Below are positions 11,475-61,427 of a DNA stretch of 61,427 nt, piece after piece (positions within the stretch are counted from its first letter, which is position 1; each line of letters starts with the position of its first letter). The position numbers and the translations under genes are program-made. Location of the stretch: positions 1-61,427 of IMG/VR virus record IMGVR_UViG_3300029179_000001; one strand, written 5' to 3'. This DNA comes from a virus (Duplodnaviria > Caudoviricetes). The notes under the pieces are model-generated. The model was given only the letters and a program-made list of their open reading frames with translations. It was not told the DNA's origin and searched no databases.

Positions 11475-11627
11475 ATGAAAACCATCTATCAATTGATCAA
11501 GGAAGGCTTCAAGAAGCAATTCAGCAGGAAGCCAACTCCTCTTGAAGTGGCTCACAACCTTCCGAAAGGGGCTAGCGACAGTCAAGCAATGCTGGCAATG
11601 GTTGCTGCGCTGGAGGACCAATCATGA
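11475..11627 (+). CDS. Small protein (50 aa, not in ORF track)
   Basis: GAAAGGAC RBS; stop overlaps the next ATG. Confidence 0.55.
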   Translation: MKTIYQLIKEGFKKQFSRKPTPLEVAHNLPKGASDSQAMLAMVAALEDQS

Positions 11628-12094
11628 CCAAGCTGTATGTCGCCTCTAGTTGGCGCAACACGGTCTACACCACCCTGCTTCAAAATCTTCGTGATACAGG
11701 GCACGAGTGCTATGATTTCCGCAATCCAGGGGATGGGGATGATGGCTTCTCTTGGAGCAAGGTTGACCCGGAATGGAAATCATGGACGCTCGATCAGTAC
11801 AACAATGGCCTGCTTCATCCTGCTTCTCAGCAGGGATTTAAGCTAGACAAGTCTGCCCTCGATTGGTGTGAGCAGCTTGTCCTAGTCCTTCCTTGCGGCA
11901 AATCAGCTCATGTGGAAGCGGGTTACGCATCAGGCTGTGGCAAGAAAGTTCACGTGTACATTCCGCAGGGAATGAAAGAAGATTACAAAGGCAATCCCAT
12001 TTGGGAGCCAGAGCTCATGTACCTTCTCTTCACGACAATTTGCGGCAACTTGGACGGGCTCAACTATGCCCTTCACAAGCACCGTCCAAAGTGA
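11624..12094 (+). CDS. Nucleoside 2-deoxyribosyltransferase-like protein / nucleotide N-hydrolase
   Basis: LYVASS, D..ALDWC..LVLV, G.SAHVEAGYA.G.GK with the catalytic Glu position retained. Confidence 0.7.
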   Translation: MTKLYVASSWRNTVYTTLLQNLRDTGHECYDFRNPGDGDDGFSWSKVDPEWKSWTLDQYNNGLLHPASQQGFKLDKSALDWCEQLVLVLPCGKSAHVEAGYASGCGKKVHVYIPQGMKEDYKGNPIWEPELMYLLFTTICGNLDGLNYALHKHRPK

Positions 12095-15920: not shown

Positions 15921-15941
15921 TGTTCAAATTCCTTCCGTGCC

Positions 15942-48646: not shown

Positions 48647-48809
48647 CGCGGGATAGCGATGGCGAGCCGCTCGCTCGCTAGGTTTTGTAACACAGGACAC
48701 TGAAACGCAATAATATCGAAAGCCCCTAATGTAACTGGGGCCTCCAGCTGATAGGCCCCTCCCGCTTCCCCAAATCTATGCGGGAGGGGTTCTCGAAAAG
48801 GACCAACCA

Positions 48810-49064: not shown

Positions 49065-49311
49065 CCGTAACTCCTTGCGGTTCAAGGGGTTCAATGTTGG
49101 CGAGGCCAACATGATTGATGCGATCCTCTATGTTGGCGAGGCAATCAATCGTCTTGCGGATGCAGTTGAAAAGATGCCATCAGAAGGGTCCATCGAAGAA
49201 ACCCCCGCCAAGGGGTTTCTCGCAAAAGCGTTCGAGGAAACGGGCGCAGAGATTTTAGCTTCAACGCAATTTCATATTGCGGAGCTCATCAACAAGGAAG
49301 GGCAAAAATGA
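49048..49311 (+). CDS. Hypothetical protein
   Basis: RBS present; ATGA coupling to the next gene. Confidence 0.5.
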   Translation: MSTLANRNSLRFKGFNVGEANMIDAILYVGEAINRLADAVEKMPSEGSIEETPAKGFLAKAFEETGAEILASTQFHIAELINKEGQK

Positions 49312-50291
49312 AAGTTTCAATCATTGGTGCAGGGATGGCTGGCCTTCTAGCAGCCAACATGTTGAGCCGTTACAAGCCATGTGTTTTTGAGAAACAACCC
49401 ACCCTTCCAAACAATCACTCCGCAGTCCTTCGCTTCCGCTCGCCTATTGTTGGGGATGTCCTAGGCATTCCATTCAAGAAGGTAACAATGATCAAGACGG
49501 TTTTGCCTTGGACCAATCCTGTTGCGGATGCGCTTGCATACTCATTCAAGAACACAGGACAATATTCGAGTGATCGCAGCGTAGTGTCTTCCTCATTTGT
49601 GCGTGAAGACCGTTACATTGCACCTCAAAACCTAATATCCCAGATGTATCAAATGATTCCGGGAGAACAGTTTCGTTTTGGAGAAAGTTATTTCGATCCC
49701 CAGGAAGATTTGATTGGCCCAAGCAAAGATGCCAAGAGGCAAGGCATCGCGATCATTTCAACGATGCCAATGCCGATGCTAATGAACGCTCTCAACTATA
49801 AGGGCCAAGGTTCTTCTCCATTTATTTTCCCGTCTCAAAGAGGAGTAAATGTAAAGGTGAAGCTGTATGCAACAGATGCCTATGTGAGTTTGTACATCAC
49901 TAATCCTGAATATCCAATGAGCCGCATATCGATTACGGGAAATGAAATGATCATCGAGTTTCCCGGAATGACAAAGGAACAAGCAACCCCAGCATTGATA
50001 CAGAAGATGATCGATCAATCATTCTTGTTCCTAGGAATGAGTTATGAGGCTTCAGCTAAGGATGGAAGCTTTCAAATTTATGATCAAATGTATCACAAGA
50101 TACTCCCCATCAGCGATGTTGTGCGGAAGGACTTCATGAGTTGGGCAACACGTGAGTTCAATATCTATAGTCTTGGACGTTTTGCTACGTGGCGCCCTTC
50201 GTTGTTGCTGGATGATCTTGTTCAAGATGTCCGGCTCATCGAACGTTGGTTCAATGGTAGTAGCTTGTATGAGATTAACAGGAGGAAGTGA
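49308..50291 (+). CDS. FAD-dependent oxidoreductase (UDP-galactopyranose mutase-like fold)
   Basis: IIGAGMAGL...VFEK Rossmann motif; C-terminal YSLGRFATWRP. Confidence 0.8.
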   Translation: MKVSIIGAGMAGLLAANMLSRYKPCVFEKQPTLPNNHSAVLRFRSPIVGDVLGIPFKKVTMIKTVLPWTNPVADALAYSFKNTGQYSSDRSVVSSSFVREDRYIAPQNLISQMYQMIPGEQFRFGESYFDPQEDLIGPSKDAKRQGIAIISTMPMPMLMNALNYKGQGSSPFIFPSQRGVNVKVKLYATDAYVSLYITNPEYPMSRISITGNEMIIEFPGMTKEQATPALIQKMIDQSFLFLGMSYEASAKDGSFQIYDQMYHKILPISDVVRKDFMSWATREFNIYSLGRFATWRPSLLLDDLVQDVRLIERWFNGSSLYEINRRK

Positions 50292-50292
50292 A

Positions 50293-50757
50293 ATGAGCGA
50301 TGAACCTTGCCGTCAATTATCGAACCTGGCAACTGTGAATGGAGAATGCATTCGCTGTGGTGCTTATGCTGGAGAAGCTTGCCGGGACAATTTGCCCAAG
50401 CCACCAAAGTCCGTTCGTTCTTCCCTCAACAAACCTTCAGGGTTCACTCGCTTTTCCCTCGACAAGACCCCACGCCACCGTCAGCCACCCAATAAGGCAG
50501 ATGGTAAGCTGTTGTTGTCTTCTCCCCCGCGTGTAACGAGGGATGAAGCCCTTGAGCTGATGGTTCATCATCTTCAACTCGCAGCAATGTATTATGAAGC
50601 CACCAGCCATGATGAGTCAGCTGTTGCTATAGAAGTGAACCGGATTATGTCGGAGGATGTTATTGGCTTCGATCCGCCCGGAAAGCTTGCGGCTCAAGCT
50701 TGGCTTCGCTCAATGAACGATACATATGGGAGTTACAAGAATGTTGAAGAAGATTGA
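50293..50757 (+). CDS. Hypothetical protein with N-terminal Cys finger
   Basis: CIRCGA..GEAC; GGAGG RBS. Confidence 0.55.
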   Translation: MSDEPCRQLSNLATVNGECIRCGAYAGEACRDNLPKPPKSVRSSLNKPSGFTRFSLDKTPRHRQPPNKADGKLLLSSPPRVTRDEALELMVHHLQLAAMYYEATSHDESAVAIEVNRIMSEDVIGFDPPGKLAAQAWLRSMNDTYGSYKNVEED

Positions 50758-50971
50758 AGCTGTCCATCAATCCGTTGGTATCCGTATCCGCATGATCCGC
50801 GAAGCTCTAGGATTGAATCAGGGTGATCTATCTAAGCGGGTTGGTCTTGATAGAACATCCATCACAAACATCGAATCAGGAAGACAGCGGCTCCTGCTTC
50901 ACAACATTGAAGCTTTCGCTTTGGCGCTTGGAACGACACCTAAGAACTTGATGAAAGGAATATGGTGGTAA
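50741..50971 (+). CDS. XRE-family HTH transcriptional regulator
   Basis: RIRMIRE..GL.Q..L...VG..R.SI.NIE.G. Confidence 0.85.
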   Translation: MLKKIEAVHQSVGIRIRMIREALGLNQGDLSKRVGLDRTSITNIESGRQRLLLHNIEAFALALGTTPKNLMKGIWW

Positions 50972-50972
50972 G

Positions 50973-51155
50973 ATGAAGCTGACTTGGATGGAATGTAATT
51001 GTGGTTCTCCTATTTGCGACCGCAAGTGGCCATTGGAAATTGGAACCTATTATCAAGGCTCTGGTTTCAGCAATCTTGAACGGGAGGTCATGGACAAGGC
51101 TTTCTCTTCAATGACTAAAGAGCAATTCCATAAGATATTGGACAAAACAATATGA
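50973..51155 (+). CDS. Hypothetical protein
   Basis: CNCG.P.C motif; coupled to the next gene. Confidence 0.5.
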   Translation: MKLTWMECNCGSPICDRKWPLEIGTYYQGSGFSNLEREVMDKAFSSMTKEQFHKILDKTI

Positions 51156-51484
51156 TGAAGGATCGAGTGGACAGGCAAATCAAAGCCGCGCAACAATTCT
51201 CTCTTTTGTTTGGGGAGGAGAAGCTGAACAATGATCGCATTCAGGTGATGCGCTTCATTAAGGAAGCCCTGCGCCTTGTTCATTCTATGAATATCTCACG
51301 GGCGAAACTGAATGAGATGTTCGAAACCGTCTATCATCAAAAGCGATTTAGTACAAAGCAACAAGTCGGCAAAGTTGGGCTATCGCTCCTAACGCTCGGA
51401 CATTCTCTAGGCCTGAATGTAGATGACCTAGAGGAGTTTGAGCTAGGGAAGATGATTGAAAAGGGGAGAGACGCTAGTGATTGA
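51152..51484 (+). CDS. MazG-like all-alpha protein, degenerate paralog
   Basis: Aligns by eye to 51477-51851 (RFIKEA/RFIEEA), but acidic residues are lost. Confidence 0.55.
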   Translation: MMKDRVDRQIKAAQQFSLLFGEEKLNNDRIQVMRFIKEALRLVHSMNISRAKLNEMFETVYHQKRFSTKQQVGKVGLSLLTLGHSLGLNVDDLEEFELGKMIEKGRDASD

Positions 51485-51851
51485 ACCTAAATCAAGAATG
51501 ATTGACCGTCAGCAGCGTCAGCGTGCTGTTGCTGAATGGGTTGAGGAAACCTTCGGAAAGGATCAAGCAAAAAGCCAGCGCATTCGTTGCTTGCGCTTTA
51601 TTGAGGAAGCCTTTGAACTGGTTCAATCCCTCAATCTATCGAAGCACGAATGCATCAAGGTTGCTAATGCAGTCTACAAGCGCAAGAGCGGAGCGCCAAT
51701 TCAAGAGCTAGGGGGAGTTGGGATAACTCTTTTGGCACTTGCTGATTCGATTGGGCACGATGCAGATTGTGCTGAGTCAATGGAACTCAACCGCGTCCTA
51801 TCTAAGGACAAGGCCCACTTCCAAAAACGCAACGCAGAGAAAATCAAGTAA
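51477..51851 (+). CDS. MazG-like nucleotide pyrophosphohydrolase
   Basis: W...TFG, RFIEEAFEL, QELGGV. Confidence 0.65.
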   Translation: MIEPKSRMIDRQQRQRAVAEWVEETFGKDQAKSQRIRCLRFIEEAFELVQSLNLSKHECIKVANAVYKRKSGAPIQELGGVGITLLALADSIGHDADCAESMELNRVLSKDKAHFQKRNAEKIK

Positions 51852-51863
51852 CAGGAGCTCATC

Positions 51864-52166
51864 ATGCTAGAGTTTTCGGCCAAGTCCATCCTCATCATCC
51901 CCGAACAACAAGTCAAGGAAATGTTCGAGCAAACGATGAAAGGCGCAACACAACACGCTGGCGATGCTGCGAGCGTTGCCAAGCTTTTAACTCGGATAAA
52001 CACTCAGCAAGTTCCCTTCATGTTGCTAGGGGTTCCAGGGCAATCCTACATTGTCGCAAACCTTCGCATGGCAGCTGGCCTTCCTCCTGGACAATTGATT
52101 CAAATGATGAATCAATCTCAAGGTGTAAAGCCACCTTTCAACCCAATCATCAATGGGAGCAACTAA
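51864..52166 (+). CDS. Hypothetical protein
   Basis: AGGAG RBS. Confidence 0.55.
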   Translation: MLEFSAKSILIIPEQQVKEMFEQTMKGATQHAGDAASVAKLLTRINTQQVPFMLLGVPGQSYIVANLRMAAGLPPGQLIQMMNQSQGVKPPFNPIINGSN

Positions 52167-52920
52167 CATGAGAGTGTCTCTTATTGATTACACTGGCGCC
52201 GGTCACCCGGATAAGTTGTATGCTGCGAAGCTTCTTTGCTACACGAAGGACACTCGCCTAGAGCAAGGTTCAGATAGCTTCGAAAAGACTATGCTTATGA
52301 GCGAGGCTGAAACGCTGGAGAAACTCAAATACATCGCCAACACGATCCGTTCATCATGGGAGTTTGTTGATTACACATTCCAGATTGTTGGGGTTACACG
52401 TGCCTTTACCCATCAATTCGTCCGTACAAGGACAGGCAGCTATGCACAACAATCACAGCGCAGCGTTGACATGTCCGGCTTTACAGATGTTAAGCCTGTC
52501 TCTGTTTTGAATAACAGCGAGGCTTCTGCTTGCTGGGACAATGCTATGAAATTCATTGACCTGGCATATAGGGACTTAAGAAAGAACGGGATTGAGGCTG
52601 AAGATGCACGTGGCCTTCTCCCAACGAATATTAGCACCAACATCATTGCTAAGTTCAACTTACGGACCCTCGCAGATTTAGCAGGAAAGCGCGACAACCT
52701 ACGGGCTCAAGGCGAGTACACTTCAGTGTACAAGAAGATGGCTGAGTGTGTAATGCACGTTATGCCTTGGACAAGGGATTTTCTTTACCCAGAACGGACG
52801 GCAACCCCTATGCTAGATACCATTCTCAAGGAAGCGCTCGGAAGCGCAACGCCATTCAGCAAGCCAAGAATCAATGATGCACTCAAGGAGTTAGACCGTC
52901 TCAAGGGAGCTTGGGGTTGA
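52153..52920 (+). CDS. thyX: Flavin-dependent thymidylate synthase-like protein (variant)
   Basis: RAFTHQFVRTR(x7)S, EDARGLLP, NLRTL, R....AQGE. Confidence 0.85.
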   Translation: MGATNMRVSLIDYTGAGHPDKLYAAKLLCYTKDTRLEQGSDSFEKTMLMSEAETLEKLKYIANTIRSSWEFVDYTFQIVGVTRAFTHQFVRTRTGSYAQQSQRSVDMSGFTDVKPVSVLNNSEASACWDNAMKFIDLAYRDLRKNGIEAEDARGLLPTNISTNIIAKFNLRTLADLAGKRDNLRAQGEYTSVYKKMAECVMHVMPWTRDFLYPERTATPMLDTILKEALGSATPFSKPRINDALKELDRLKGAWG

Positions 52921-53044
52921 TGGACCTGTCCTTTCACTTTCCGTTCGACTATCCATTCAGTGAGTTTCTAGCAACTCTCTTTTGGGTAGGATTGTTCTGT
53001 TACATTTTTGTGTACTTTTTTTCAGCATGGATAAAGGGGAAAGA

Positions 53045-53269
53045 ATGAGCCAGACATTCTCAAAACGCCAATCGTTCTTTAAGCAGGCACTCAAGGACAA
53101 TGTTTCTCAATTTGCCTTGCGGCATTCTGCTTCACTTGACAAGATGTCTGGGAGTGCTTGCGAGAATTGCGGCCGCAAATTCTATAACCCGGATGACCCT
53201 CTATCAAAGCCTTTCGGGCGTTTGTGTACTGCTTGTTACAAATTTGCAACAATGGAGAAGCTTATATGA
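53045..53269 (+). CDS. Zn-finger hypothetical protein
   Basis: CENC...CTAC. Confidence 0.55.
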   Translation: MSQTFSKRQSFFKQALKDNVSQFALRHSASLDKMSGSACENCGRKFYNPDDPLSKPFGRLCTACYKFATMEKLI

Positions 53270-53865
53270 TCCTTGTTGCTCCTTTCTTTCCTTCCCGGAA
53301 AAAGTGCCTTGCTTACTGTGGGGATGATCTTTGCGATTGTGCCCATTTCCCTCGCTACAAACCCTTTCAATGGAGACAAATGATGACCGCCCCTCATACA
53401 ACCTACAAAGTCCTCAACGACATCGCCAAGGAACGCGAATGCCAGATTGATGTTGAAGGCTTCGATCCCAATCAAGATGACAATCGTACTGATAGAAGCC
53501 TTGCAATTGCAGCGGCGGCTTATATCGATTGCGCTAGCTGGTCCACGGAGAAGCGTGAAAGGCGGAAAGAGTTCAATCAACCTCCATCATGGTGGCCATT
53601 CGATAAGAAGTGGTGGAAGACAACTGACCGGCGGCGCGATTTAATTAAGGGGATTGCGCTTGCTGTTGCTGAGGTGGAACGGTTGGATAGGATCGTGAGC
53701 AAGGGCGGAGAAATCGATGAAGAAAGTCAATCCAAGACGGCGCAAGGCAATCTTCAAAAAGAAGCAAATGGCGAAGGGGAAACCCAGCAAGATGGACTTT
53801 CGCAACGCGAAGCTGATAAAGGCGGAGAAGCTGATAAAGGCGGAGAAACTGATAAGCATCATTGA
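53266..53865 (+). CDS. Conserved phage protein (Ead/Ea22-associated domain; alternative start 53380)
   Basis: ER..QI..EG.....DD, WPF...WWK, RRDLIK..AL..AE.ERLDR. Confidence 0.65.
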   Translation: MILVAPFFPSRKKCLAYCGDDLCDCAHFPRYKPFQWRQMMTAPHTTYKVLNDIAKERECQIDVEGFDPNQDDNRTDRSLAIAAAAYIDCASWSTEKRERRKEFNQPPSWWPFDKKWWKTTDRRRDLIKGIALAVAEVERLDRIVSKGGEIDEESQSKTAQGNLQKEANGEGETQQDGLSQREADKGGEADKGGETDKHH

Positions 53866-53932
53866 CCTAAAAGCCAACAAGCCTCATCCGCCACACTCAT
53901 ACATCTACACAATGGAGACAGAAGATGACTAA
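53717..53932 (+). CDS. Basic hypothetical protein
   Basis: GGAG RBS; overlaps both neighbours. Confidence 0.4.
   Translation: MKKVNPRRRKAIFKKKQMAKGKPSKMDFRNAKLIKAEKLIKAEKLISIIDLKANKPHPPHSYIYTMETEDD
53809..53855. repeat. 18-bp tandem repeat, ~2.6 copies
   Basis: GAAGCTGATAAAGGCGGA twice, then GAAACTGATAA. Confidence 0.85.
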
Positions 53933-54623
53933 CATTCAGACAGTTCTCGTTACGGGCGGCGCGGGAACACTCGGCAGCTACATTGCCAATCGTCTTGCCG
54001 ACACTTACGGATATAATGTTGTGACGCTCGATGTGCCTGGAACGGATGCTGACATCCAAGTTAATTTGAAAGACAAAGGAAAATGGATTGATGAACTTGG
54101 CAAAGAACAAATTGACGCCGTCGTTCACGTTGCCGGCCTAAACAAGATCGCTCCTCACAAGGATGTTGATGGGGACTTGCTTTCTGAGTTGATGTATGTG
54201 AACTGTTACTCTCAATTCTATCTCAACCGTTTCCTGATGGGCAATAGTCTTTCTCCATTACAACTTGCCCTTCATATTGTCAGTGATGCGGCTCTTCAAC
54301 CGTTCACACACTCCCTAGCCTACAATCTATCGAAGGCAGCACAGCTCATGCTTGTGCGCCAGATGGCTCATGAGATCAAGCCCCAAGAATGTGTTATCTT
54401 TTCCGTATCGCCGGGGAAGATTGCGAACACAGGAATCAGCAATTACATTGACAAGGCGTTCCCTCCCCTTCGTGGCATGACGTTTAAGGAGGGCCGCGCC
54501 TATCAATTGTCGCGCCTTCGAACGGGAGAAATGGAAGTGGGATTGACTGCTGACTTTATCTGCGGGCTATTTCACAGCGCATCTGTTCACAATCATGGTC
54601 ACAACTATGTAATAGGGGGCTAA
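53925..54623 (+). CDS. Short-chain dehydrogenase/reductase
   Basis: TGGAGTLG, VH.AG, catalytic Ser (IVS), YNLSK, VSPG. Confidence 0.88.
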   Translation: MTNIQTVLVTGGAGTLGSYIANRLADTYGYNVVTLDVPGTDADIQVNLKDKGKWIDELGKEQIDAVVHVAGLNKIAPHKDVDGDLLSELMYVNCYSQFYLNRFLMGNSLSPLQLALHIVSDAALQPFTHSLAYNLSKAAQLMLVRQMAHEIKPQECVIFSVSPGKIANTGISNYIDKAFPPLRGMTFKEGRAYQLSRLRTGEMEVGLTADFICGLFHSASVHNHGHNYVIGG

Positions 54624-54624
54624 C

Positions 54625-55110
54625 ATGGAACAAGTATCTCTTCACGATAAGATCGAGCAAATTGCCTTTGGATGCTGGAACTTGTATGAGTGGGAATATC
54701 AAGCACAAAAGTGTTCTGTTACAGACAGAGTTGTCTTTGATGGACGTTTCCGCCGCAATAGCTCTGAACCTTGGATCGAGATCAAGGATAAGGTTGGTTA
54801 TCTAGCGTTCGACTACCTGACTGGGCTGGAGCGGGAATATCTTCACTATCCTAATCGAAAGGACACCTTTCACGAGCTCATCCCATTCAACTTTTCCGAG
54901 TTGTACCTGTCTCATTTTGGACAGCATTGTGATGACATCCAGGGTTATATTGAACAGCATGGGGAAACCAATCTCATCATGGATGTCAGAACGAAATCTC
55001 ATACCAATGCATACTTGATCGATAAGAAACGGACCTATCGCTATGTTATCTTCGACAAGCGGGCTGAGTCAGGGTACTTTTGGAAACTCATACAGAGGTT
55101 CGAATCATGA
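54625..55110 (+). CDS. Hypothetical protein
   Basis: Fills the gap between neighbours; ATGA coupling downstream. Confidence 0.55.
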   Translation: MEQVSLHDKIEQIAFGCWNLYEWEYQAQKCSVTDRVVFDGRFRRNSSEPWIEIKDKVGYLAFDYLTGLEREYLHYPNRKDTFHELIPFNFSELYLSHFGQHCDDIQGYIEQHGETNLIMDVRTKSHTNAYLIDKKRTYRYVIFDKRAESGYFWKLIQRFES

Positions 55111-55670
55111 CAGAGACAGTCGGCGAAAGCCTATCAAGGATCGCGGACCAATTTATTGCTAAGTCCAGCGAATACGGCGACAGCTACAAGCAGATGGGGC
55201 CAGTGCTAAAGTCTCTCTTTCCAAACGGCATAGTCCTCAATACAGAAAGGGAGTTCAACCGCTTCTCTCACTTCGTTCAACTGGTCTACAAACTCAATCG
55301 CTATGCTTTCAATTTTGAACAGGGAGGGCACTGCGACAGCATGAATGATCTTGCCATTGGGTCTCAACTCATGAACGAGATTGATTCACATTCAGACAAT
55401 GTTGAACGGGTTTTGAATCGTCTTAAGAATGATCAGCCTCTAACCCTCAACAAGCCTGCCTTTCTGGGTCACGATCTATACAAAACAGGCGATAAGGATT
55501 GCCCAACCAGCATTCTCGACAGCAATGGCGAGGTTGTCTTAGGGCTTTGCCGTAAGTGCGGGAAGGGGGAGAGCGAACTAGAAGCCCCTTGTCCAGTTAC
55601 TGCTATTCCTCCCGCAAAGCCAACAATGCCCCCTGTTTGGGCAGGAGAAGATGAGGATGGCGATCCATGA
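55107..55670 (+). CDS. Nmad1/DUF1599-like protein with C-terminal Cys domain
   Basis: K..EYGDSY, FP.G..L, FNRF, K..RY, GH.DS..D; paralog of 57003-57323. Confidence 0.6.
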   Translation: MTETVGESLSRIADQFIAKSSEYGDSYKQMGPVLKSLFPNGIVLNTEREFNRFSHFVQLVYKLNRYAFNFEQGGHCDSMNDLAIGSQLMNEIDSHSDNVERVLNRLKNDQPLTLNKPAFLGHDLYKTGDKDCPTSILDSNGEVVLGLCRKCGKGESELEAPCPVTAIPPAKPTMPPVWAGEDEDGDP

Positions 55671-55866
55671 ATTGCGGCCACAATCCAAACTTGCTATTGC
55701 TCTTGTCGCTCAATGGAACAAGCCGGGAGTTGCTGACGCTTACCGCAAGTGCCGTTGGTCCTTTGTGGATTGGCCAAATAGTGGAGAAGTTTGGATGTGG
55801 TCTCTTAGTCTTATCCGTTCCCGCTCCTGGAAACGCTCCCCTTACCGCACACCTAGGAATGTGTAA
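55657..55866 (+). CDS. Hypothetical protein
   Basis: RBS present; ends at a CTAG-rich island. Confidence 0.35.
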   Translation: MAIHELRPQSKLAIALVAQWNKPGVADAYRKCRWSFVDWPNSGEVWMWSLSLIRSRSWKRSPYRTPRNV

Positions 55867-55996
55867 TCCCGGAAATCTCCCCGCCCTAGGTCTAGAGGGA
55901 GAAAGCCCTATAGGGAGTGATCCTAGGTGTGTTTTCGAGCCTATCCGGGAGGGATAGGGTAAGAAGGAAGGGAAGCGGAGCGCTATACGAAGCGAA

Positions 55997-56248
55997 GTGA
56001 TACAAGAAAATGCTGAAACGATGCTAGAAAACAGGAACGATGGACTAAGCTTCTTTCGCGGCATCATCAATGCTCTCATTCTTGCCTGCCCATTCTACCT
56101 CGCTTTCTTGTTCTGGGTGTTTGGAGTAGTATCCTATTGGGCTTGGGGCTTTGCTTTGATCATCATTGTTTATTGGGGACACTTGATGGCCAAAGGGATT
56201 AAGATTTGGCGGCAGAAGGAAAGGGAACAAAATGATCGGCACAGATGA
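55997..56248 (+). CDS. Two-TM membrane protein
   Basis: Two hydrophobic helices. Confidence 0.55.
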   Translation: MIQENAETMLENRNDGLSFFRGIINALILACPFYLAFLFWVFGVVSYWAWGFALIIIVYWGHLMAKGIKIWRQKEREQNDRHR

Positions 56249-56555
56249 AAATGGCTTTAAGCAAAAGCCAACAGTTGAAGGATCGCAAACACAAGATGAT
56301 CCCTTGTTGCTTTGCTATTGCGATTTGGCTTGTGAATACTTCGTGAGAAAAAAATCTGACATGTGCGAGGTTTGTGATTGTACGCATCCTTTCACACCTC
56401 AAAATGCTCAGCAAGCCTTAACCTGGCTTCACGAGGAACGGGTCAAGGTTACTCATCAGCTGAATGAGCAAAGGAATATCATTACAAAGCTCAGAAGGGC
56501 TTTCAATGATTTGTTCAAAGTTCTTTCAGACAACAAAGGAGCATTCAATGAATAG
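56232..56555 (+). CDS. Hypothetical Cys-rich / coiled-coil protein
   Basis: C.C...C and C..C.C motifs; RBS. Confidence 0.5.
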   Translation: MIGTDENGFKQKPTVEGSQTQDDPLLLCYCDLACEYFVRKKSDMCEVCDCTHPFTPQNAQQALTWLHEERVKVTHQLNEQRNIITKLRRAFNDLFKVLSDNKGAFNE

Positions 56556-57000
56556 GCGTATTGTTCTGTGCGACATTGACCACGTTATCTCTGATGCGTT
56601 CTGGCGGGACAATATGTTGTCTGGGGCCTCTCCTGACTATGATTCGTATCACTATGCGAGCCGGGAGGATAATCCAAATCCTGCAATTGTCTCCATGCTT
56701 CAAACTCTTTGCTTTGCCGGTAGTTATCACATTGTGGGCCTGACTGCACGGCCTGAGAAATGGCGAAAGCTAACTATGGACTGGATGATTAAGCACTATG
56801 TCCCAATGGATGAGCTTTTTATGCGTCCTATGGATATGCTGTTTGAGCCAACGCCAAAGCTCAAAGCACACCTCATCAAGATCAATTACCCTGAAGGTTT
56901 CAAGAACATTTCGCTGGTCATTGATGATCGCGAGGATGTTTGTGCTGAGCTAAGGGGGATGAATTTGAACGTAATGCAATACACAATGAGGAGGGCTTAA
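56548..57000 (+). CDS. HAD-family phosphatase (PNKP phosphatase-like)
   Basis: CDIDH (DxD), LTARPE, conserved Lys, IDDR. Confidence 0.85.
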   Translation: MNRRIVLCDIDHVISDAFWRDNMLSGASPDYDSYHYASREDNPNPAIVSMLQTLCFAGSYHIVGLTARPEKWRKLTMDWMIKHYVPMDELFMRPMDMLFEPTPKLKAHLIKINYPEGFKNISLVIDDREDVCAELRGMNLNVMQYTMRRA

Positions 57001-57002
57001 CA

Positions 57003-57323
57003 ATGTCTGAACAATCTCACCCTGTCGCTGAAAGCCTTAAGAAGCTGGGAGCGTTGTTTGATGAGCGGGCTGCAGTGTATGGGGACAACTACAAATTCTT
57101 CGGCAAGGTTATGCTGGGAATGTTTCCTCATGGCCTTGAGCTTAAGAGCGAGGATGATTTCAATCGCTTCTCCATGTTCCTCATAAGTGTGGTCAAGATG
57201 ACGCGCTACGGACAGATGTTCAAGAAGGGCGGGCATGATGACTCTCTTGATGACAGTTCTGTGTATCTACAAATGCTAGCCAAGATGGATCAAGAAATCC
57301 GCGCAGGAGGAAAGAATGTCTAA
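57003..57323 (+). CDS. Nmad1/DUF1599-like protein
   Basis: ER..VYGDNY, FP.G..L, DFNRF, K.TRY, GHDDSL.D..VY. Confidence 0.6.
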   Translation: MSEQSHPVAESLKKLGALFDERAAVYGDNYKFFGKVMLGMFPHGLELKSEDDFNRFSMFLISVVKMTRYGQMFKKGGHDDSLDDSSVYLQMLAKMDQEIRAGGKNV

Positions 57324-57858
57324 TTTCTCTCTTAACCTCCCCCTCTCCCTTCAAGAGAACTATGAAGCAGCAATGTTGAGAGACATTGGAAATTGGAATT
57401 TTCTTTCCGGTCCAGTCATCCTCAACATTGGAGCAGGCAACAAGCTCATCAAAGGAACAATCCCCCTTTCGCTTGATCAAGGGTGGTCAGCCCCTTTGCT
57501 ATCCGATTTTGCAAATGAAAGTGTTGATGGGATCATCACATATCATTTCCTCGAATTTCTGACACGCGAACAATTCATGCTTCAGCTTCGTGAGTTTCAG
57601 CGCGTTCTTAGGACAGAAGGGCTTGTTAACATTGCTGTCCCCTACTTTGCCAGTGAGCAAGCCTTTCACGACATCAACAATCAGTTGTACTTCACTGAGA
57701 AAACCTTTGTTCATGTGCTTGAAAAGAAATACTACAGCATGAACCTTGTAAATGGGCTAGAGGAGGAAAAGTGGAGGCTCAGGATCAATAACTCTTGCAT
57801 CATGGGGCATTCACACATGAACCTTATGCTTATGATTCAACTGGAGAAAACCCCATGA
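57316..57858 (+). CDS. Class I SAM-dependent methyltransferase (small-molecule type)
   Basis: LNIGAG, SVD.I...HFLE, RVL..EG...I.VP. Confidence 0.75.
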   Translation: MSNFSLNLPLSLQENYEAAMLRDIGNWNFLSGPVILNIGAGNKLIKGTIPLSLDQGWSAPLLSDFANESVDGIITYHFLEFLTREQFMLQLREFQRVLRTEGLVNIAVPYFASEQAFHDINNQLYFTEKTFVHVLEKKYYSMNLVNGLEEEKWRLRINNSCIMGHSHMNLMLMIQLEKTP

Positions 57859-58445
57859 AAAGGAAAATCAAGAAAGTGACAGTCAGTAAGCCTGTCATCA
57901 AGAAGCCAAAACTGCGTTGGTTTGCGTTCGATACAGAAACCACTGGCCTAGTCGAAAACCGGAAGCTGAGTCTAGACCGGCTTCCTGAGATTGTTGAGTT
58001 TTATGGAGTTGAATTCGATCCTGTCAGTGGAGAAATGTTCCGGGAGATCAATCAACTCATCAAGCCACGTAAGTCTATGAATGCAGAACAAATCAGCCAT
58101 CACATGATTACCAATGAGATGTTGGCAAATGAGCCTGTCTTTGCTTTTGTTGCTCCAAGAATCAAGGAGTTTATTGAAGGACAATCCCTCGTGTTCGCCC
58201 ATAATCTATCATTCGACATGGACATGGTCGACATCGAGTTTGAGCGTCTGGAGCAAAAGATAGCTTGGCCAAGACGCTTGTGTACAGTTGAGCAAACGAT
58301 TCATTTGCGTGGTCATCGCCTCTCTTTAACGAAGCTTCACGAACATCTATTCAAAACTCCATTCAGCGGAGCGCACAGGGCAAAGGTCGATGTGGCAGCC
58401 CTTGTTCGTTGTATTTGCGAACTACACAAGTTGGGAGAGCTATGA
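57855..58445 (+). CDS. dnaQ: DEDDh 3'-5' exonuclease (Pol III epsilon-like)
   Basis: FDTETTG, AHN..FD, HRA..D. Confidence 0.9.
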   Translation: MKRKIKKVTVSKPVIKKPKLRWFAFDTETTGLVENRKLSLDRLPEIVEFYGVEFDPVSGEMFREINQLIKPRKSMNAEQISHHMITNEMLANEPVFAFVAPRIKEFIEGQSLVFAHNLSFDMDMVDIEFERLEQKIAWPRRLCTVEQTIHLRGHRLSLTKLHEHLFKTPFSGAHRAKVDVAALVRCICELHKLGEL

Positions 58446-58870
58446 TGGAAAACATTGATCTCAATAAACTGCGCCGGGAACTCATAAAGATACGGGAATG
58501 GGCTCAAAACTACATCGATAAGCTACAGCCCCCTCCCGCAACAGAAGCAGGCTCCCTCCCTATCAATCCCCCTCCTCCAGCAGCTGCGCAAGTTATTGCA
58601 GGCGCTTCTCCGCGTGCTGCGGATGCTGCGTCAGCAAAAGAGGTTGATAAGAAGCTTCCGATGTTGGTGTGGAAGAAAACATTGAAGGGCGGATACACTC
58701 CAGAGTTTTGGCCTCATGGAGAGGTTGTGATTGGAGGACAAAGCAACAGCTACGTCAAGGCATACAATGTGTCTAATCTTCACTATGGTCTTTCAATTTC
58801 AATGTTGACAATTCACTATCCATTGCCTGATGAGTTTCATCAAAAACCTATTGGGGAGAAAGCATCTTGA
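58442..58870 (+). CDS. Hypothetical protein
   Basis: Coupled at both ends; Pro/Ala linker. Confidence 0.55.
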   Translation: MMENIDLNKLRRELIKIREWAQNYIDKLQPPPATEAGSLPINPPPPAAAQVIAGASPRAADAASAKEVDKKLPMLVWKKTLKGGYTPEFWPHGEVVIGGQSNSYVKAYNVSNLHYGLSISMLTIHYPLPDEFHQKPIGEKAS

Positions 58871-61427
58871 GAATACGAACAGGCTATAGTTTCCGTGTGG
58901 CAACAGGCCACATCGAGGATGTGCTAGCGAGGATCAAGGAGCTAGGTTGGAATGTTGCTCCAATCACAGACCGCAACTCGACATTCGGATTTAACCGCTA
59001 TACAAAGGCCGCGAAGAAACTCGGATTGCGTCCTATCTATGGTGTTGAGCTTGGTGTGGTCACTTCTTTAGGGGAGAAGCAGCCAAACATTGACTATTGG
59101 ACATTTATTGCGAAGAATGATCTAGAGCCTCTTCACAAGCTCATTGGGCTGGCAACAGCCAATCCCGGAAAACAACCAACAATTGATTATGCTCAAGCAT
59201 TCGACACTGAAGGGCTTTTTCGTATAGCAGGCCACACTGCTGTCCTAAGTGAGTGTGATGCTGATGACCCTGATTTCTATTTGGGTTTGTCTCCCTCACT
59301 TCCGAAAGGACAATTCAAGGCAGGACAATTGGGCGGCTTCCGTTGGCTAGCTGTTTCCGATAACTTGTACACGACAGTTGAAGACCGTGAATTCTATCGC
59401 GTCATGATGGGACGCCGCAACAATAGCCAAAGCTATCCACAACACATTCTTTCAGACAAGGAATGGATGGAAGCTGTTTCAATGATTTGTTCTGAGCCGC
59501 AGGCGGAGAAGGCATTACAAAATCGTAATTTTGTTGCCGATGAATGCCGGGCAGAGCTCAAGAAAGCAACCCTTCTAATCCCAGAACACCCAATGACACT
59601 AAGAGCGATGTGTGAGAAAGGGGCAAAGCGCCTAGGTATAAACCTCAAGGACAAGGTGTATGGTCCCCGGCTCACGCGTGAGCTAGAAATGATAACACTC
59701 AAGAATTTCGAGGATTACTTTTACATCATTGCAGATATGGTCCAGTGGGCTAAGGAACGGATGATTGTTGGGCCTGCAAGAGGATCATCCTGCGGCTCTC
59801 TCGTTTGCTACTTGCTCGATATTACGACAATCGATCCTCTCAAGTATGACTTGTTGTTTGAGCGCTTTATCGATACCACACGCAAGGACTTGCCCGACAT
59901 CGACATCGATTTCAGCGATGATAAGCGCTCGCTTGTGTTTGATTATGCGGAAAAGAAATATGGGTTGGACCGTGTTGCACGTCTAGGAACAATCGGCCTT
60001 TTCAAACCCCGTTCAGCCTTGAATCAAGCAGCATTGGCCCTACAAATACCTAAATGGAAGATGAACAAGGTCATCGACTCAATCATTGACCGCTCTGACG
60101 GTGATTCGCGTGCTAAGCAGGCCATTGAGGACACATTGAACGATACAGAAGCAGGCCGCGACATCCTAACCGAATATCCAGAGATCATAATCGCAGCAAA
60201 GATGGACCGTCACCCAAACAACCCTGGACAACACGCAGCTGGCATTGTCATCACTCAAGAACCAATCATCAAATACGTCGCAGTCAACTCCCTTACAAAG
60301 TCTATCATGTGCGATGGCCGTGATTCCGAGGATTACAACTTTCTCAAGATCGATGCACTAGGTCTAACTCAGCTATCAATCTTCGAACGCACCTTAGAGC
60401 TAATCGGCAAGGAGCCGCGCAACGGGTTTCTTGAAAAGCTTCCTACCAACGATAAGAAAGCATTCGATGTTCTTAACAAGGCTCACTTCAGTGGCATCTT
60501 CCAATTCAATGGATTGGCAATCCAATCACTGGTAAAATCTATTGTCATTGAGGACATTGAAGACATCATCAGCATTATTGCCCTAGCGCGCCCTGGTCCA
60601 ATGTCAACAGGAAGGGCTCAACAATGGGTAAGGCGGCGCATGAACCTAGAAGAATTCACTGCACCACATCCCATCTTCGAGCCATACTTGCGCCCCTTTC
60701 TAGGCATCGTCATGTACCAAGAAACAGTCATGAAGATAGGTAAGGACATTGGTGATTTGACTTGGGAAGATGTTACACAGCTTCGTAAGGCAATGTCCAA
60801 GTCCTTGGGTAAGGAGTATTTCGATCAATACGGGGACAAGTGGAAGACAGCAGGAGAAAAGAAGGGTATCCCGCGCGATGTGCTTGATGTTTTCTGGGAT
60901 GACTTATGCTCTTTTGGCTCCTATGGATTCAACCGCTCACATGCTGTTGCTTATGGAATGGTCTCCTATTACAGCTGTTACCTCAAGGCTCACTATCCCC
61001 TAGAATTTGCGGCCGCAACATTAGATGCGGAAAGTGATCCAGCGCGGCAAATCCTTATGTTGCGGGAGCTAAGGGATGAAGGTGTTGATTACATTCCTGT
61101 TGATGCGGAAGCTTCTACAGACAAGTGGGTTCCAACGAAAAAGGAAGGCAGACACCTCCTTGTGGGACCACTCACTCAGATAAAGGGGTTTGGCCCTGCT
61201 ACTGTTTCAGAGATTATGGAATGCCGCAAGAAGGGGAAGCCAATACGTCCTGCGCTTCTAAAGCGATTGGAGAATGCTAAGACTGAAATTGACTCATTGT
61301 TCCCTGTTAGGGATGCTGTTGCCAAGCATGTTCCTGATTTGACAGTCAAGAATATATTTAGCTCTCCTGTTGAAGTCAAAACAGTCCAATGCGATCCTGC
61401 ACGTGGGCGTTATGAAGAGGTAATGAT
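58867..61427 (+). CDS. dnaE: DNA polymerase III alpha subunit (about 965 aa including 1-441)
   Basis: TTG start; RTGYS/TDR/PIYGVE (PHP), GPARGS, LLFERF, PDIDID, HAAG, KID.LGL, YGFNRSHA; frame open to the window end. Confidence 0.93.
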   Translation, partial: MRIRTGYSFRVATGHIEDVLARIKELGWNVAPITDRNSTFGFNRYTKAAKKLGLRPIYGVELGVVTSLGEKQPNIDYWTFIAKNDLEPLHKLIGLATANPGKQPTIDYAQAFDTEGLFRIAGHTAVLSECDADDPDFYLGLSPSLPKGQFKAGQLGGFRWLAVSDNLYTTVEDREFYRVMMGRRNNSQSYPQHILSDKEWMEAVSMICSEPQAEKALQNRNFVADECRAELKKATLLIPEHPMTLRAMCEKGAKRLGINLKDKVYGPRLTRELEMITLKNFEDYFYIIADMVQWAKERMIVGPARGSSCGSLVCYLLDITTIDPLKYDLLFERFIDTTRKDLPDIDIDFSDDKRSLVFDYAEKKYGLDRVARLGTIGLFKPRSALNQAALALQIPKWKMNKVIDSIIDRSDGDSRAKQAIEDTLNDTEAGRDILTEYPEIIIAAKMDRHPNNPGQHAAGIVITQEPIIKYVAVNSLTKSIMCDGRDSEDYNFLKIDALGLTQLSIFERTLELIGKEPRNGFLEKLPTNDKKAFDVLNKAHFSGIFQFNGLAIQSLVKSIVIEDIEDIISIIALARPGPMSTGRAQQWVRRRMNLEEFTAPHPIFEPYLRPFLGIVMYQETVMKIGKDIGDLTWEDVTQLRKAMSKSLGKEYFDQYGDKWKTAGEKKGIPRDVLDVFWDDLCSFGSYGFNRSHAVAYGMVSYYSCYLKAHYPLEFAAATLDAESDPARQILMLRELRDEGVDYIPVDAEASTDKWVPTKKEGRHLLVGPLTQIKGFGPATVSEIMECRKKGKPIRPALLKRLENAKTEIDSLFPVRDAVAKHVPDLTVKNIFSSPVEVKTVQCDPARGRYEEVM
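61324..61427. repeat. Terminal overlap, copy 2
   Basis: Matches bases 1-104. Confidence 0.95.

What the first reader, a model, noticed from the sequence alone, without database searches (positions are those of the whole stretch)
49308..57858. Candidate undescribed DNA base hypermodification pathway
Seen: one co-oriented operon leading into the phage's own DnaQ/DnaE holds a UGM-like flavoprotein, two MazG-like proteins, a variant ThyX, an SDR, two Nmad1-like proteins, a HAD phosphatase and a SAM methyltransferase. An FMN hydroxy-acid dehydrogenase ends the same transcript, and an NDT-like hydrolase sits in the early region. I recognise no dUMP/dCMP hydroxymethylase, glycosyltransferase, PurZ, Que/DpdA or aGPT-PplPase gene, so this matches none of the well-known hmU, hmC, Z or 7-deazaguanine routes. 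Known: phages with substituted bases often carry their own polymerase plus pool-clearing pyrophosphatases, and Bacillus phage SP-15 makes 5-(4,5-dihydroxypentyl)uracil at the nucleotide level. Inference: the ThyX variant attaches a non-methyl (possibly sugar-derived) group at pyrimidine C5, and the redox, phosphatase and methyltransferase enzymes tailor it.
Basis: partly seen in the sequence, partly recalled or inferred. Interest (0 to 1): 0.88.

Follow-up and report, generated by a model that had tools for sequence, protein, structure and literature searches.

The report
Candidate sugar-thymidine DNA modification cassette
This phage carries, just ahead of its own DNA polymerase, a widely conserved gene set (a sugar-handling flavoprotein, a thymidylate-synthase relative, a phosphatase and tailoring enzymes) that is the best candidate for making the sugar-bearing thymine recently found in the DNA of related therapeutic Pseudomonas phages.

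Summary
I confirmed the UGM-like flavoprotein, ThyX, SDR and HAD phosphatase, all co-oriented and leading into DnaQ/DnaE. The MazG-like, methyltransferase and NDT-like calls rest on weak evidence, and the 'Nmad1' label could not be tested.

The cluster is not unique to this phage. UGM-like, ThyX, HAD and a DUF6378-like helical domain, in that order ahead of DnaQ/DnaE, form a conserved cassette. It occurs in Pbunavirus, Wifcevirus, Myosmarvirus, Carpasinavirus and hundreds of metagenomic phages. Among 30 IMG/VR records with the UGM-like gene, ThyX was in 29, HAD in 27 and the helical domain in 25. An SDR+VOC pair is an optional insert.

A 2025 preprint (PMC12191111) reports that about a quarter of thymidines in Pbunavirus F8 and 14-1 DNA carry sugar-derived groups of 362 and 390 Da. 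It names no biosynthetic genes. A Wifcevirus study reports restriction resistance with no known mechanism.

My best reading, at about 0.55, is that this cassette is the unassigned locus for that kind of thymidine hypermodification. The enzymology is inferred, not shown. The FMN dehydrogenase is not co-conserved (0 of 30). The main rival is an ordinary dTMP and nucleotide-supply module.

The parts
49308..50291 (+). UGM-like FAD flavoprotein (327 aa), first gene of the conserved core
50726..50971 (+). XRE/HTH_3 DNA-binding protein embedded in the block
   Evidence: Pfam HTH_3 2.2e-11. I did not look for it in the relatives' cassettes.
51152..51484 (+). Small helical protein, paralogue of the next gene, possibly a degenerate MazG-like fold
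   Evidence: phrog_8593 2.1e-9. 36% identity to 51456-51851. The acidic motif is largely lost in the sequence.
51456..51851 (+). Small helical protein, possible MazG-like NTP pyrophosphatase
   Evidence: phrog_8593 8.5e-29. Atlas feature neighbours include MazG clusters, scores 0.89-0.95. PDB 5ie9 reaches only E 0.68. An EExxE motif is present and the second motif is incomplete.
52153..52920 (+). ThyX-family flavin-dependent thymidylate synthase, R-T-R clade
   Evidence: Pfam Thy1 118.2 bits. TIGR02170 98.3 bits against 87.9. The motif is RTRxxSxxxxSxR rather than RHR, and T. maritima His53 aligns to Phe. 40% identity to the Pbunavirus ThyX.
53224..53865 (+). Protein of unknown function carrying a C-terminal domain shared with many phage proteins
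   Evidence: phrog_6628 and eight other PHROGs, all 'unknown function'. No Pfam or PDB match. Not similar to the MTx HAD protein.
53925..54623 (+). Classical short-chain dehydrogenase/reductase (optional tailoring module)
   Evidence: adh_short 6e-15. 35% identity, E 7e-34, to the Serratia phage MTx SDR at the same position. TGxxxGxG and YxxxK are visible in that alignment. Nearest solved structures are butanediol and alcohol dehydrogenases.
54625..55110 (+). VOC (glyoxalase/bleomycin-resistance/dioxygenase) fold protein, partner of the SDR
   Evidence: Homologous to MTx gp071 and XcP1 gp046. Family profile A5 hits PDB 3gm5 at E 1.5e-4. Glyoxalase_4 matches 14 of 38 family members, but not the window's own protein. 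It co-occurs with the SDR.
55080..55670 (+). Protein with an N-terminal DUF6378-like four-helix domain (first copy)
   Evidence: phrog_4889 C-terminal region 2.7e-9. Aligns to the C-terminal domain of the Pbunavirus gp73 HAD fusion, E 7e-9. Shares the YGD...NRF...RY...GGH.DS..D motif.
56464..57000 (+). HAD-superfamily phosphatase of the PNKP/GmhB type
   Evidence: Pfam HAD_PNKP 4e-10. phrog_415 2.9e-23. A DxDxV motif, 'DIDHV', is visible.
57003..57323 (+). DUF6378-like four-helix domain protein (second copy); together with the HAD gene it is the split form of the Pbunavirus fusion protein
   Evidence: phrog_4889 5.5e-14. 35% identity to the gp73 C-terminus, E 1e-10. AF2 pLDDT 88. No informative fold match.
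57316..57858 (+). Putative SAM-dependent methyltransferase (weak call)
   Evidence: phrog_6636 'methyltransferase' 3.8e-20. Pfam Methyltransf_11 is below its cut-off. Present in 5 of 30 relatives, once inside the cassette.
57795..58445 (+). DnaQ-like 3'-5' exonuclease
   Evidence: Pfam RNase_T 8.1e-17.
58867..61425 (+). DnaE-type DNA polymerase III alpha subunit (runs off the record)
   Evidence: tblastn at 34-37% identity to phage DnaE genes of Myosmarvirus, Pbunavirus and others.
3375..4487 (+). FMN-dependent alpha-hydroxy-acid dehydrogenase; not part of the conserved cassette
   Evidence: Pfam FMN_dh 2.4e-101. Present in 0 of 30 relatives.
11624..12094 (+). Weak nucleoside 2-deoxyribosyltransferase-like hit; membership doubtful
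   Evidence: Pfam Nuc_deoxyri_tr2 E 0.006, 17.4 bits against a cut-off of 30.

Best explanation
The block 49308-57858 is this phage's version of a widespread cassette that sits directly ahead of the phage's own DnaQ/DnaE. The conserved core is a UGM-like flavoprotein, a ThyX of the R-T-R clade, a HAD phosphatase and a DUF6378-like helical domain. I propose that the cassette makes a sugar-derived substituent on the C5 position of thymine/uracil in the phage's DNA, the kind of hypermodified thymidine found chemically in Pbunavirus F8 and 14-1.

The steps below are all inferred.
1. ThyX acts on dUMP and provides the C5 one-carbon chemistry, yielding dTMP or a 5-methylene/5-hydroxymethyl intermediate.
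2. The UGM-like flavoprotein activates a sugar by UGM-type covalent catalysis, in which flavin N5 attacks the anomeric carbon. It supplies an open-chain or furanose sugar unit to the C5 substituent.
3. The HAD phosphatase removes a phosphate from a sugar-phosphate or nucleotide intermediate.
4. Where present, as here, the SDR+VOC pair and the methyltransferase-like protein tailor the sugar by redox, epimerisation or isomerisation, and O-methylation. This would give lineage-specific side chains.
5. The phage's own polymerase copes with the modified substrate or template.

What is shown: the gene families, their order, their co-conservation, and homology to the cassette of phages with a chemically detected modification. 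What is inferred: that this cassette is responsible, and every enzymatic step.
For: - Synteny. The order UGM-like, ThyX, HAD(+DUF6378-like), (SDR, VOC), DnaQ, DnaE was seen in all 5 annotated relatives inspected: Vibrio VA-RY-3, Serratia MTx, E. coli Bas98, Xanthomonas XcP1 and Pseudomonas Ab28.
- Co-occurrence. IMG/VR holds 409 stretches encoding the UGM-like protein. I searched the whole records behind 30 of the 80 loci kept, choosing those from contigs of at least 30 kb. ThyX was in 29 of 30 and in 14 of 14 records that are at least 90% complete; the one miss has the UGM-like gene about 100 bases from a contig end. HAD_PNKP was in 27 of 30. The DUF6378-like domain was in 25 of 30. In the nine records whose coordinates I checked, ThyX lay within about 1.5 kb downstream of the UGM-like gene on the same strand.
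- Optional module. The SDR was in 7 of 30 and VOC in 6 of 30, and all 6 VOC records are among the 7 SDR records. A variable insert like this is what a tailoring module would look like.
- Chemistry in relatives. F8 and 14-1 both carry the core region at 100% coverage. PMC12191111 section 8 reports novel nucleosides of 362 and 390 Da replacing about a quarter of T. [quoted passage not shown] Its discussion says Pbunavirus lacks known modification genes.
- Wifcevirus, which has the cassette including SDR and VOC, is reported not sensitive to the RM systems tested, apart from one type III system, without a known mechanism.
- The only sugar-related fold in the block is the UGM-like protein. One of the UGM structures it matches, 5hhf, is titled as carrying a covalent FAD-galactopyranose adduct.
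- One complete relative, G005, carries a second, very different Thy1-family gene beside an RNR-like ORF in addition to the cassette copy. This hints that the two are not redundant.
- My own mass arithmetic, which no tool computed. 362.3 equals dU bearing a 1-deoxypentitol chain at C5, or 5-hmdU ether-linked to a tetritol. 390.3 equals dU C-linked to a hexosyl group, or 5-hmdU O-linked to a pentose. Both masses therefore fit a sugar joined at C5.
Against: - No experiment links any cassette gene to the modification, and the window's own virion DNA has never been analysed.
- The ThyX passes the equivalog cut-off for an ordinary thymidylate synthase and keeps the dUMP-binding arginines. It may simply make dTMP.
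- The UGM-like protein has no Pfam GLF match; its only Pfam hit is a sub-threshold NAD_binding_8. Protoporphyrinogen and amine oxidases score only about 3 Z units lower, so a non-sugar redox role is possible.
- The Pbunavirus modification is reported in a TG context. That implies at least one step acts on DNA, and none of the cassette proteins is shown to bind DNA.
- No glycosyltransferase or kinase was found.
- The window is only a distant relative: 32-40% protein identity to Pbunavirus.
- The F8 and 14-1 products differ although both carry the same gene set in this region at about 88-96% nucleotide identity to Ab28. The determinant of the difference may lie elsewhere.
Confidence: 0.55

Rival explanations
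1. This is an ordinary nucleotide-supply module. ThyX is a normal dTMP synthase that boosts thymidylate for fast replication. The UGM-like protein is a flavin oxidoreductase serving it, for example by reducing its FAD, or has an unrelated redox role. The HAD enzyme is a nucleotidase or a PNKP-like end-repair phosphatase. SDR, VOC, the methyltransferase-like protein and FMN_dh are accessory metabolic genes. In this reading the Pbunavirus modification is made by other, still unrecognised genes.
For: - ThyX exceeds the TIGR02170 equivalog cut-off and keeps the substrate-binding arginines.
- Annotators call these genes thymidylate synthase and polynucleotide kinase/phosphatase.
- The position ahead of DnaQ/DnaE, among helicase, primase and ligase genes, fits replication support.
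Against: - As far as I recall, ThyX needs no dedicated reductase in characterised systems.
- The best structural match of the partner protein is consistently the sugar mutase UGM, not a reductase.
- The tight UGM-like/ThyX/HAD linkage (27-29 of 30) and the variable SDR+VOC insert look like a small-molecule pathway.
- Pbunavirus DNA does carry a sugar-derived T, and no other sugar-related gene is annotated in the 33 kb I inspected in phage 109.
- One relative has an additional Thy1 gene next to an RNR-like ORF.
Confidence: 0.3
2. The cassette makes or remodels a sugar compound that does not end up on DNA. Examples would be a furanose nucleotide-sugar used to alter host envelope glycans, or a modified nucleotide that acts as a signalling or anti-defence molecule.
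For: - The UGM fold, the sugar-type HAD phosphatase, SDR, VOC and methyltransferase-like protein are all typical of nucleotide-sugar tailoring.
- A genuine phage UGM that supplies a furanose donor is known in Rhizobium phage RL38J1 (PMC13326640, Table 1 passage).
Against: - No glycosyltransferase was found in the window.
- The cassette is always embedded in the replication module, next to ThyX and the polymerase.
- Relatives have a sugar-derived base in their DNA.
Confidence: 0.1

Closest known systems
Replication-module cassette of Pbunavirus (F8, 14-1, PB1, Ab28: 'polyamine oxidase'/hypothetical gp81, ThyX gp75, HAD_PNKP fusion gp73, DnaQ, DnaE), whose virion DNA carries sugar-derived hypermodified thymidine (PMC12191111)
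   Same: Orthologous UGM-like protein (32% identity, E 3e-35). ThyX of the same R-T-R clade (40% identity). HAD phosphatase and DUF6378-like domain. Same order and the same position ahead of DnaQ/DnaE.
   Different: In the window the HAD and the helical domain are separate genes and the helical domain is duplicated. The window adds SDR, VOC, a methyltransferase-like gene, two MazG-like paralogues, an HTH protein and an unknown 213-aa protein. Pbunavirus has no SDR or VOC in the annotated region. The window's DNA chemistry is unknown.
Wifcevirus (Bas98), Myosmarvirus (MTx) and Carpasinavirus (XcP1) cassettes
   Same: The full extended set is present in the same order: UGM-like, ThyX, HAD, SDR, VOC-like, DnaQ, DnaE. 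Wifcevirus is reported resistant to the RM systems tested, apart from one type III system, with no known mechanism.
   Different: Protein identity is 30-42%. These phages lack the window's extra genes at the positions I inspected. No nucleoside analysis of them was found in my searches.
Known thymidine hypermodification pathways (phages M6, ViI, SPO1-like: ThyA-type dUMP hydroxymethylase, 5-HMUDK kinase, aGPT-PplPase; PMC5889632 and PMC8989533, seen as listings and abstracts only)
   Same: The end result is a partial replacement of T by a C5-substituted derivative that protects against nucleases. The genes sit with replication functions.
   Different: No ThyA-family gene is present. A ThyX-family enzyme and a UGM-like flavoprotein take its place. 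5-HMUDK and aGPT-PplPase were not tested here.
Bacillus phage SP-15, 5-(4',5'-dihydroxypentyl)uracil
   Same: A pentose-derived carbon chain sits on uracil C5 and is made at the nucleotide level, according to titles in the reference list of PMC5977210. SP-15 has a cluster NDT, SDR, weak Thy1-family protein, and further on a HAD-like 'PNK'. These are the same superfamilies as in the window.
   Different: There is no detectable pairwise similarity between the window's ThyX or SDR and SP-15 gp130 or gp129. No UGM-like protein was found in SP-15 (no positive control). SP-15 uses a family A polymerase and glycosyltransferases. This is analogy, not orthology.
UDP-galactopyranose mutase (Glf/UGM)

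Membership tests
ThyX (Pfam Thy1 / TIGR02170) | Profile match above the curated cut-offs | tested here: met
   Thy1 118.2 bits against 24.8. TIGR02170 98.3 bits against 87.9.
ThyX (Pfam Thy1 / TIGR02170) | ThyX motif RHRxxSxxxxSxR (motif recalled from the literature) | tested here: not met
   The window has R-T-R-T-G-S-Y-A-Q-Q-S-Q-R, so the His is replaced by Thr. In the 5 relatives aligned the same position is Thr in four and Asn in one. The Arg and Ser/Thr positions are kept.
ThyX (Pfam Thy1 / TIGR02170) | dUMP-binding arginines and the folate-stacking His53 of T. maritima ThyX (roles recalled) | tested here: inconclusive
   Arginines aligning to T. maritima R78, R80, R90, R147 and R174 are present and invariant in the clade. 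His53 aligns to an invariant Phe. The residue numbering and roles come from memory.
ThyX (Pfam Thy1 / TIGR02170) | Makes dTMP from dUMP with CH2-THF, FAD and NADPH | not testable with these tools
   Needs an enzyme assay.
UDP-galactopyranose mutase | Three-domain UGM fold with an FAD-binding Rossmann domain | tested here: met
UDP-galactopyranose mutase | Sequence-profile membership (Pfam GLF) | tested here: not met
   No GLF hit at E<=0.01; only NAD_binding_8 below its cut-off. PDB profile search gave UGM 1i8t at E 0.068.
UDP-galactopyranose mutase | UDP-sugar binding residues and mutase activity | not tested
   No residue-level superposition was possible because the script machine was lost. 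Activity needs an assay.
HAD superfamily, PNKP-type phosphatase | Profile above cut-off and the DxDx(T/V) nucleophile motif | tested here: met
   HAD_PNKP 40.4 bits against 27.6. 'DIDHV' at residues 37-41 is seen.
Classical SDR | adh_short profile, TGxxxGxG and YxxxK | tested here: met
   55.7 bits against 26.6. 'VTGGAGTLG' and 'YNLSK' are visible.
VOC (glyoxalase/bleomycin-resistance/dioxygenase) superfamily | Profile similarity to VOC proteins | tested here: inconclusive
   The window's own protein has no Pfam hit. Its family profile hits 3gm5 at E 1.5e-4. 14 of 38 family members hit Glyoxalase_4, best E 1.8e-7.
MazG / all-alpha NTP pyrophosphatase | Profile match and the EExxE...ExxD metal-binding motifs (motif recalled) | tested here: inconclusive
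   No Pfam hit at E<=0.01. The Atlas gives a lead only. 5ie9 reaches E 0.68. 51456-51851 has EEAFE but lacks the second Asp, and 51152-51484 is more degenerate.
Pbunavirus-type UGM-like/ThyX/HAD cassette (defined here) | Orthologues of all three core genes plus the DUF6378-like domain, co-oriented and directly upstream of DnaQ-DnaE | tested here: met
   Searches give the homology. One search gives order and strand.
Pbunavirus-type UGM-like/ThyX/HAD cassette (defined here) | Hypermodified thymidine in virion DNA | not testable with these tools
   The window comes from a metagenomic virus record, so no DNA chemistry is available.
5-hmdU-based thymidine hypermodification (ThyA-type hydroxymethylase route) | ThyA-family dUMP hydroxymethylase | tested here: not met
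   PF00303 gave 0 matches in the record, while the control rang in 10 of 14 genomes. The record is only about 68% complete.

The most novel reading that the evidence does not exclude
The UGM-like flavoprotein and the R-T-R ThyX together form a previously unknown flavin-iminium system that joins a whole sugar carbon chain to C5 of dUMP through a C-C bond. The sugar C1 is carried on flavin N5, as in the UGM covalent adduct. It is attacked by the activated C5 of dUMP, as the methylene is in ThyX. The product is then either reduced to an open 1-deoxy-alditol chain (dU + pentose, 362 Da) or ring-closed to a C-glycoside (dU + hexose, 390 Da). HAD, SDR, VOC and the methyltransferase diversify the chain. 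SP-15's pentose-derived dihydroxypentyluracil would be a chemical cousin.
Probability: 0.2. Interest if true: 0.92.

Novelty: new variant of a known kind. Interest (0 to 1): 0.75.

Why it matters
Pbunaviruses are among the Pseudomonas phages most used in therapy. A 2025 preprint showed that their DNA is hypermodified and that this decides their fate against END nucleases. The genes responsible are unassigned, both in that preprint and in everything my literature searches returned.

This window and its comparative context point to one compact cassette, conserved across at least four named genera and hundreds of uncultured phages. That makes the question directly testable by a few knock-outs plus LC-MS.

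If the cassette is responsible, three things follow.
- It adds a ThyX/UGM-type route to the known ThyA-based thymidine hypermodification routes.
- It may explain the unexplained restriction resistance of Wifcevirus.
- It gives a sequence marker for predicting modified DNA, and hence sequencing, cloning and defence-system behaviour, in many phages.

Tried and rejected
- Megablast of the block against 50,697 phage records found no match. A single-protein scan of IMG/VR found no relative. An alignment-based scan then worked.
- My one Python script failed because the script machine was lost. No gene-by-gene BLAST table, tree or residue-level superposition could be made, so I used pairwise comparisons instead.
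- The MazG-like protein at 51456-51851 shows no similarity to the Pbunavirus MazG-like gp65.
- The methyltransferase-like protein is not similar to the MTx protein at the same position. That MTx protein is instead the VOC homologue of 54625-55110.
- PDB searches with the methyltransferase-like protein and with 53224-53865 gave nothing useful.
- The word-index search for VOC relatives found only one. The exhaustive search found 102.
- The SP-15 Thy1-like and SDR proteins show no pairwise similarity to the window's, and no UGM-like protein was found in SP-15 (no positive control). I therefore rejected orthology with the SP-15 pathway and keep it as an analogy only.
- I rejected FMN_dh as part of the pathway: 0 of 30 relatives have it.
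- The Pam3_Gp34/DUF7307 pair at 46602-48124 sits elsewhere in Pbunavirus, so I do not count it as part of the cassette.
- The promoter and terminator scan was no better than shuffles.
- I did not run complex prediction, because I do not claim that the proteins bind each other.

Full report
**What the window is.** The window is a complete IMG/VR virus record of 61,427 bases. It is linear and estimated to be about 68% complete. It has no near-identical relative among 50,697 GenBank phage records. Its DnaE is 34-37% identical to the DnaE of Myosmarvirus, Pbunavirus, Burkholderia, Luteibacter and some Vibrio and Cronobacter phages.

**Checking the observation.** From about 48.8 kb to the end of the record every plausible gene lies on the + strand, with short gaps or overlaps. 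Consensus promoter and terminator scans give counts no higher than shuffled sequence. A single long transcription unit is therefore compatible with the data but not shown.

Profile searches confirm these genes:
- ThyX at 52153-52920. Thy1 scores 118 bits, and TIGR02170 scores 98.3 against a cut-off of 87.9.
- A classical SDR at 53925-54623.
- A HAD_PNKP phosphatase at 56464-57000.
- DnaQ and DnaE.
- An FMN-dependent dehydrogenase at 3375-4487.

The other labels are weaker.
- The two 'MazG-like' genes, 51152-51484 and 51456-51851, are real paralogues. They have only a language-model lead to MazG, and their acidic motifs are incomplete.
- The two 'Nmad1-like' genes are a duplicated four-helix domain with a striking conserved motif, YGDNY...NRF...KxxRY...GGHDDSLDD. 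It is weakly DUF6378-like and has no informative structural neighbour.
- The methyltransferase call rests on a PHROG name.
- The NDT-like hit is below threshold.

The absences it noted largely hold for the record as far as it goes. There is no ThyA-type, TGT/DpdA, GT1, GT2 or adenylosuccinate-synthetase-type gene. The Tet/JBP search was uninformative. aGPT-PplPase and 5-HMUDK were not tested.

**The cluster is a conserved cassette.** A tblastn search with the UGM-like protein found it in 102 phage records. In the records I inspected it lay next to the ThyX gene, or within about 3 kb in the Rhizobium jumbo phages. The annotated loci of Vibrio VA-RY-3, Serratia MTx, E. coli Bas98 (Wifcevirus), Xanthomonas XcP1 (Carpasinavirus) and Pseudomonas Ab28 (Pbunavirus) all show the same order: UGM-like, a few small genes, ThyX, a HAD protein, then DnaQ and DnaE. 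In MTx, Bas98 and XcP1 an SDR and a protein of about 175 aa stand between HAD and DnaQ.

Pairwise tests support orthology with the window.
- UGM-like: 32% identity to Ab28 gp81, E 3e-35.
- ThyX: 38-44% identity to the five relatives.
- SDR: 35% identity to MTx, E 7e-34.
- The window's 161-aa protein is the homologue of the 175-aa protein.
- The window's HAD gene and the adjacent helical-domain gene together correspond to the single Pbunavirus HAD fusion gp73.

**Co-occurrence in metagenomes.** The UGM-like family has 2860 members at E<=1e-3 in the large protein collection and 409 confirmed stretches in IMG/VR. From the 80 loci kept I took the 30 that lie on contigs of at least 30 kb and searched their whole records.

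| Gene | Records of 30 |
|---|---|
| ThyX | 29 |
| HAD_PNKP | 27 |
| DUF6378-like domain | 25 |
| SDR | 7 |
| VOC | 6 |
| Methyltransferase family (phrog_6636) | 5 |
| FMN dehydrogenase | 0 |

- ThyX was also in 14 of 14 records that are at least 90% complete. The single miss has the UGM-like gene about 100 bases from a contig end.
- All 6 VOC records are among the 7 SDR records.
- The methyltransferase family lay once inside the cassette.
- In the nine records whose coordinates I worked out, the genes lie within a few kb on one strand in the same order. An example is G006, 12962-16487.

So there is a core (UGM-like, ThyX, HAD, helical domain), an optional SDR+VOC pair, and sporadic extras. 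The window has the core, the optional pair and several extras.

**What is known about relatives.** PMC12191111 is a 2025 preprint. I read its abstract, sections 7, 8 and 11, and further passages. It reports that F8 DNA resists five restriction enzymes whose sites contain TG. It also reports that F8 and 14-1 nucleoside digests each contain a new nucleoside, of 362 and 390 Da, replacing about a quarter of thymidines. [quoted passage not shown] The discussion states that Pbunavirus lacks genes previously implicated in modification, and the paper names no biosynthetic gene.

Both F8 and 14-1 carry the core region.

Six literature searches and passages of two later papers that cite the preprint turned up no assignment of genes to this modification.

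**How it most likely works.** The homology and the chemistry in relatives make the cassette the best candidate for the pathway. It contains the only sugar-related fold in the module. It also has an enzyme family that does C5 chemistry on dUMP, a sugar/nucleotide-type phosphatase, and a variable redox/isomerase pair of the kind that diversifies sugars.

From memory, UGM works through a covalent flavin N5-sugar C1 adduct; one of the matched structures, 5hhf, carries such an adduct in its title. Also from memory, ThyX relays a methylene through flavin N5 to C5 of dUMP.

My own arithmetic shows that 362.3 Da equals dU with a 1-deoxypentitol chain at C5, or equally 5-hmdU ether-linked to a tetritol. 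It shows that 390.3 Da equals dU C-linked to a hexosyl group, or equally a 5-hmdU O-pentoside. Mass alone cannot separate these alternatives.

I therefore commit to the general statement: the cassette makes a sugar-derived C5 substituent on thymine/uracil destined for DNA, at about 0.55. I hold the specific flavin-iminium C-C coupling as the bold variant, at about 0.2.

**What speaks against it.**
- The ThyX looks functional as an ordinary thymidylate synthase. It exceeds the equivalog cut-off and keeps the arginines. Its clade-wide changes, RHR to RTR/RNR and T. maritima His53 to Phe, are suggestive only.
- The UGM-like protein is not a sequence-level UGM.
- The TG context reported for Pbunavirus implies a DNA-level, sequence-reading step. 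No cassette protein is an evident candidate for it.
- No transferase or kinase was found.
- The window is a distant relative with no chemistry of its own.

One hint of non-redundancy comes from G005, a complete relative. It has both a cassette ThyX (59% identical to the window's) and a second Thy1-family gene (23% identical) beside an RNR-like ORF.

**Comparison with SP-15.** SP-15 has NDT, SDR, a weak Thy1-family protein and a HAD-like 'PNK' in one region. According to titles in the reference list of PMC5977210, its side chain is labelled from ribose and is made as a nucleoside triphosphate. But there is no pairwise similarity to the window's proteins, and no UGM-like gene was found.

**Verdict.** The finding is best described as a new variant of a known kind: phage thymidine hypermodification, with a ThyX/UGM-type gene set that has not been assigned to it. 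Its main value is that it names a compact, testable locus for a modification already seen chemically in clinically used phages.

Noticed in passing
L088:759-1490 (-) and L089:2737-3489 (-), IMG/VR record G005: A complete 62,982-base relative carries two Thy1-family genes. One is the cassette copy (59% identical to the window's, R-T-R motif). The other is a 23%-identical copy with an 'RH' motif, lying beside an RNR-like ORF and a cytosine-methyltransferase-like ORF.
   Followed up: partly
window 3375-4487 (+): A very strong FMN-dependent alpha-hydroxy-acid dehydrogenase (2.4e-101) follows the SNF2 helicase. It is absent from all 30 related records searched, so it looks like an accessory metabolic gene specific to this lineage.
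   Followed up: partly
window 46602-48124 (+): A Pam3_Gp34-like gene and a DUF7307 (Pam3 gp33-like) gene sit together upstream of the block. The same pair exists in Pbunavirus Ab28 (gp67/gp68), but there it lies downstream of the helicases. Function unknown.
   Followed up: partly
window 53224-53865 (+): A 213-aa protein whose C-terminal ~100 residues match the C-terminal ends of nine different PHROG families of unknown function and very different lengths. This looks like a mobile domain. It has no Pfam or PDB match.
   Followed up: partly
window 7306-7692 (+) and 7999-8895 (+): A T4 endonuclease V-type pyrimidine-dimer DNA glycosylase (Pyr_excise, 8.4e-18) and a DUF932 protein (3.5e-38) lie in the other + strand block.
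   Followed up: no
L091 (Bacillus phage SP-15, 113729-121105): In SP-15 the genes for NDT (127), an SDR (129), a 413-aa protein with a marginal Thy1 match (130; 26.2 bits against 24.8), a 691-aa unknown (131) and a HAD-like 'polynucleotide kinase' (135) lie together. This could be the unassigned core of dihydroxypentyluracil synthesis.
   Followed up: partly
IMG/VR records G002, G003, G008, G009, G011, G015, G017, G019, G025, G027, G028: 12 of the 26 matches to the DUF6378-like profile contain one to three in-frame stop codons within the matched span. The likeliest cause is that the match runs over the boundary with the neighbouring HAD gene, but I did not inspect them.
   Followed up: no
window 48660-48714 (+): A terminator-like hairpin (48660-48680) is followed directly by a promoter-like site (48685-48714) in the only sizeable intergenic gap before the co-oriented block. 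The overall counts are not above shuffled controls.
   Followed up: no
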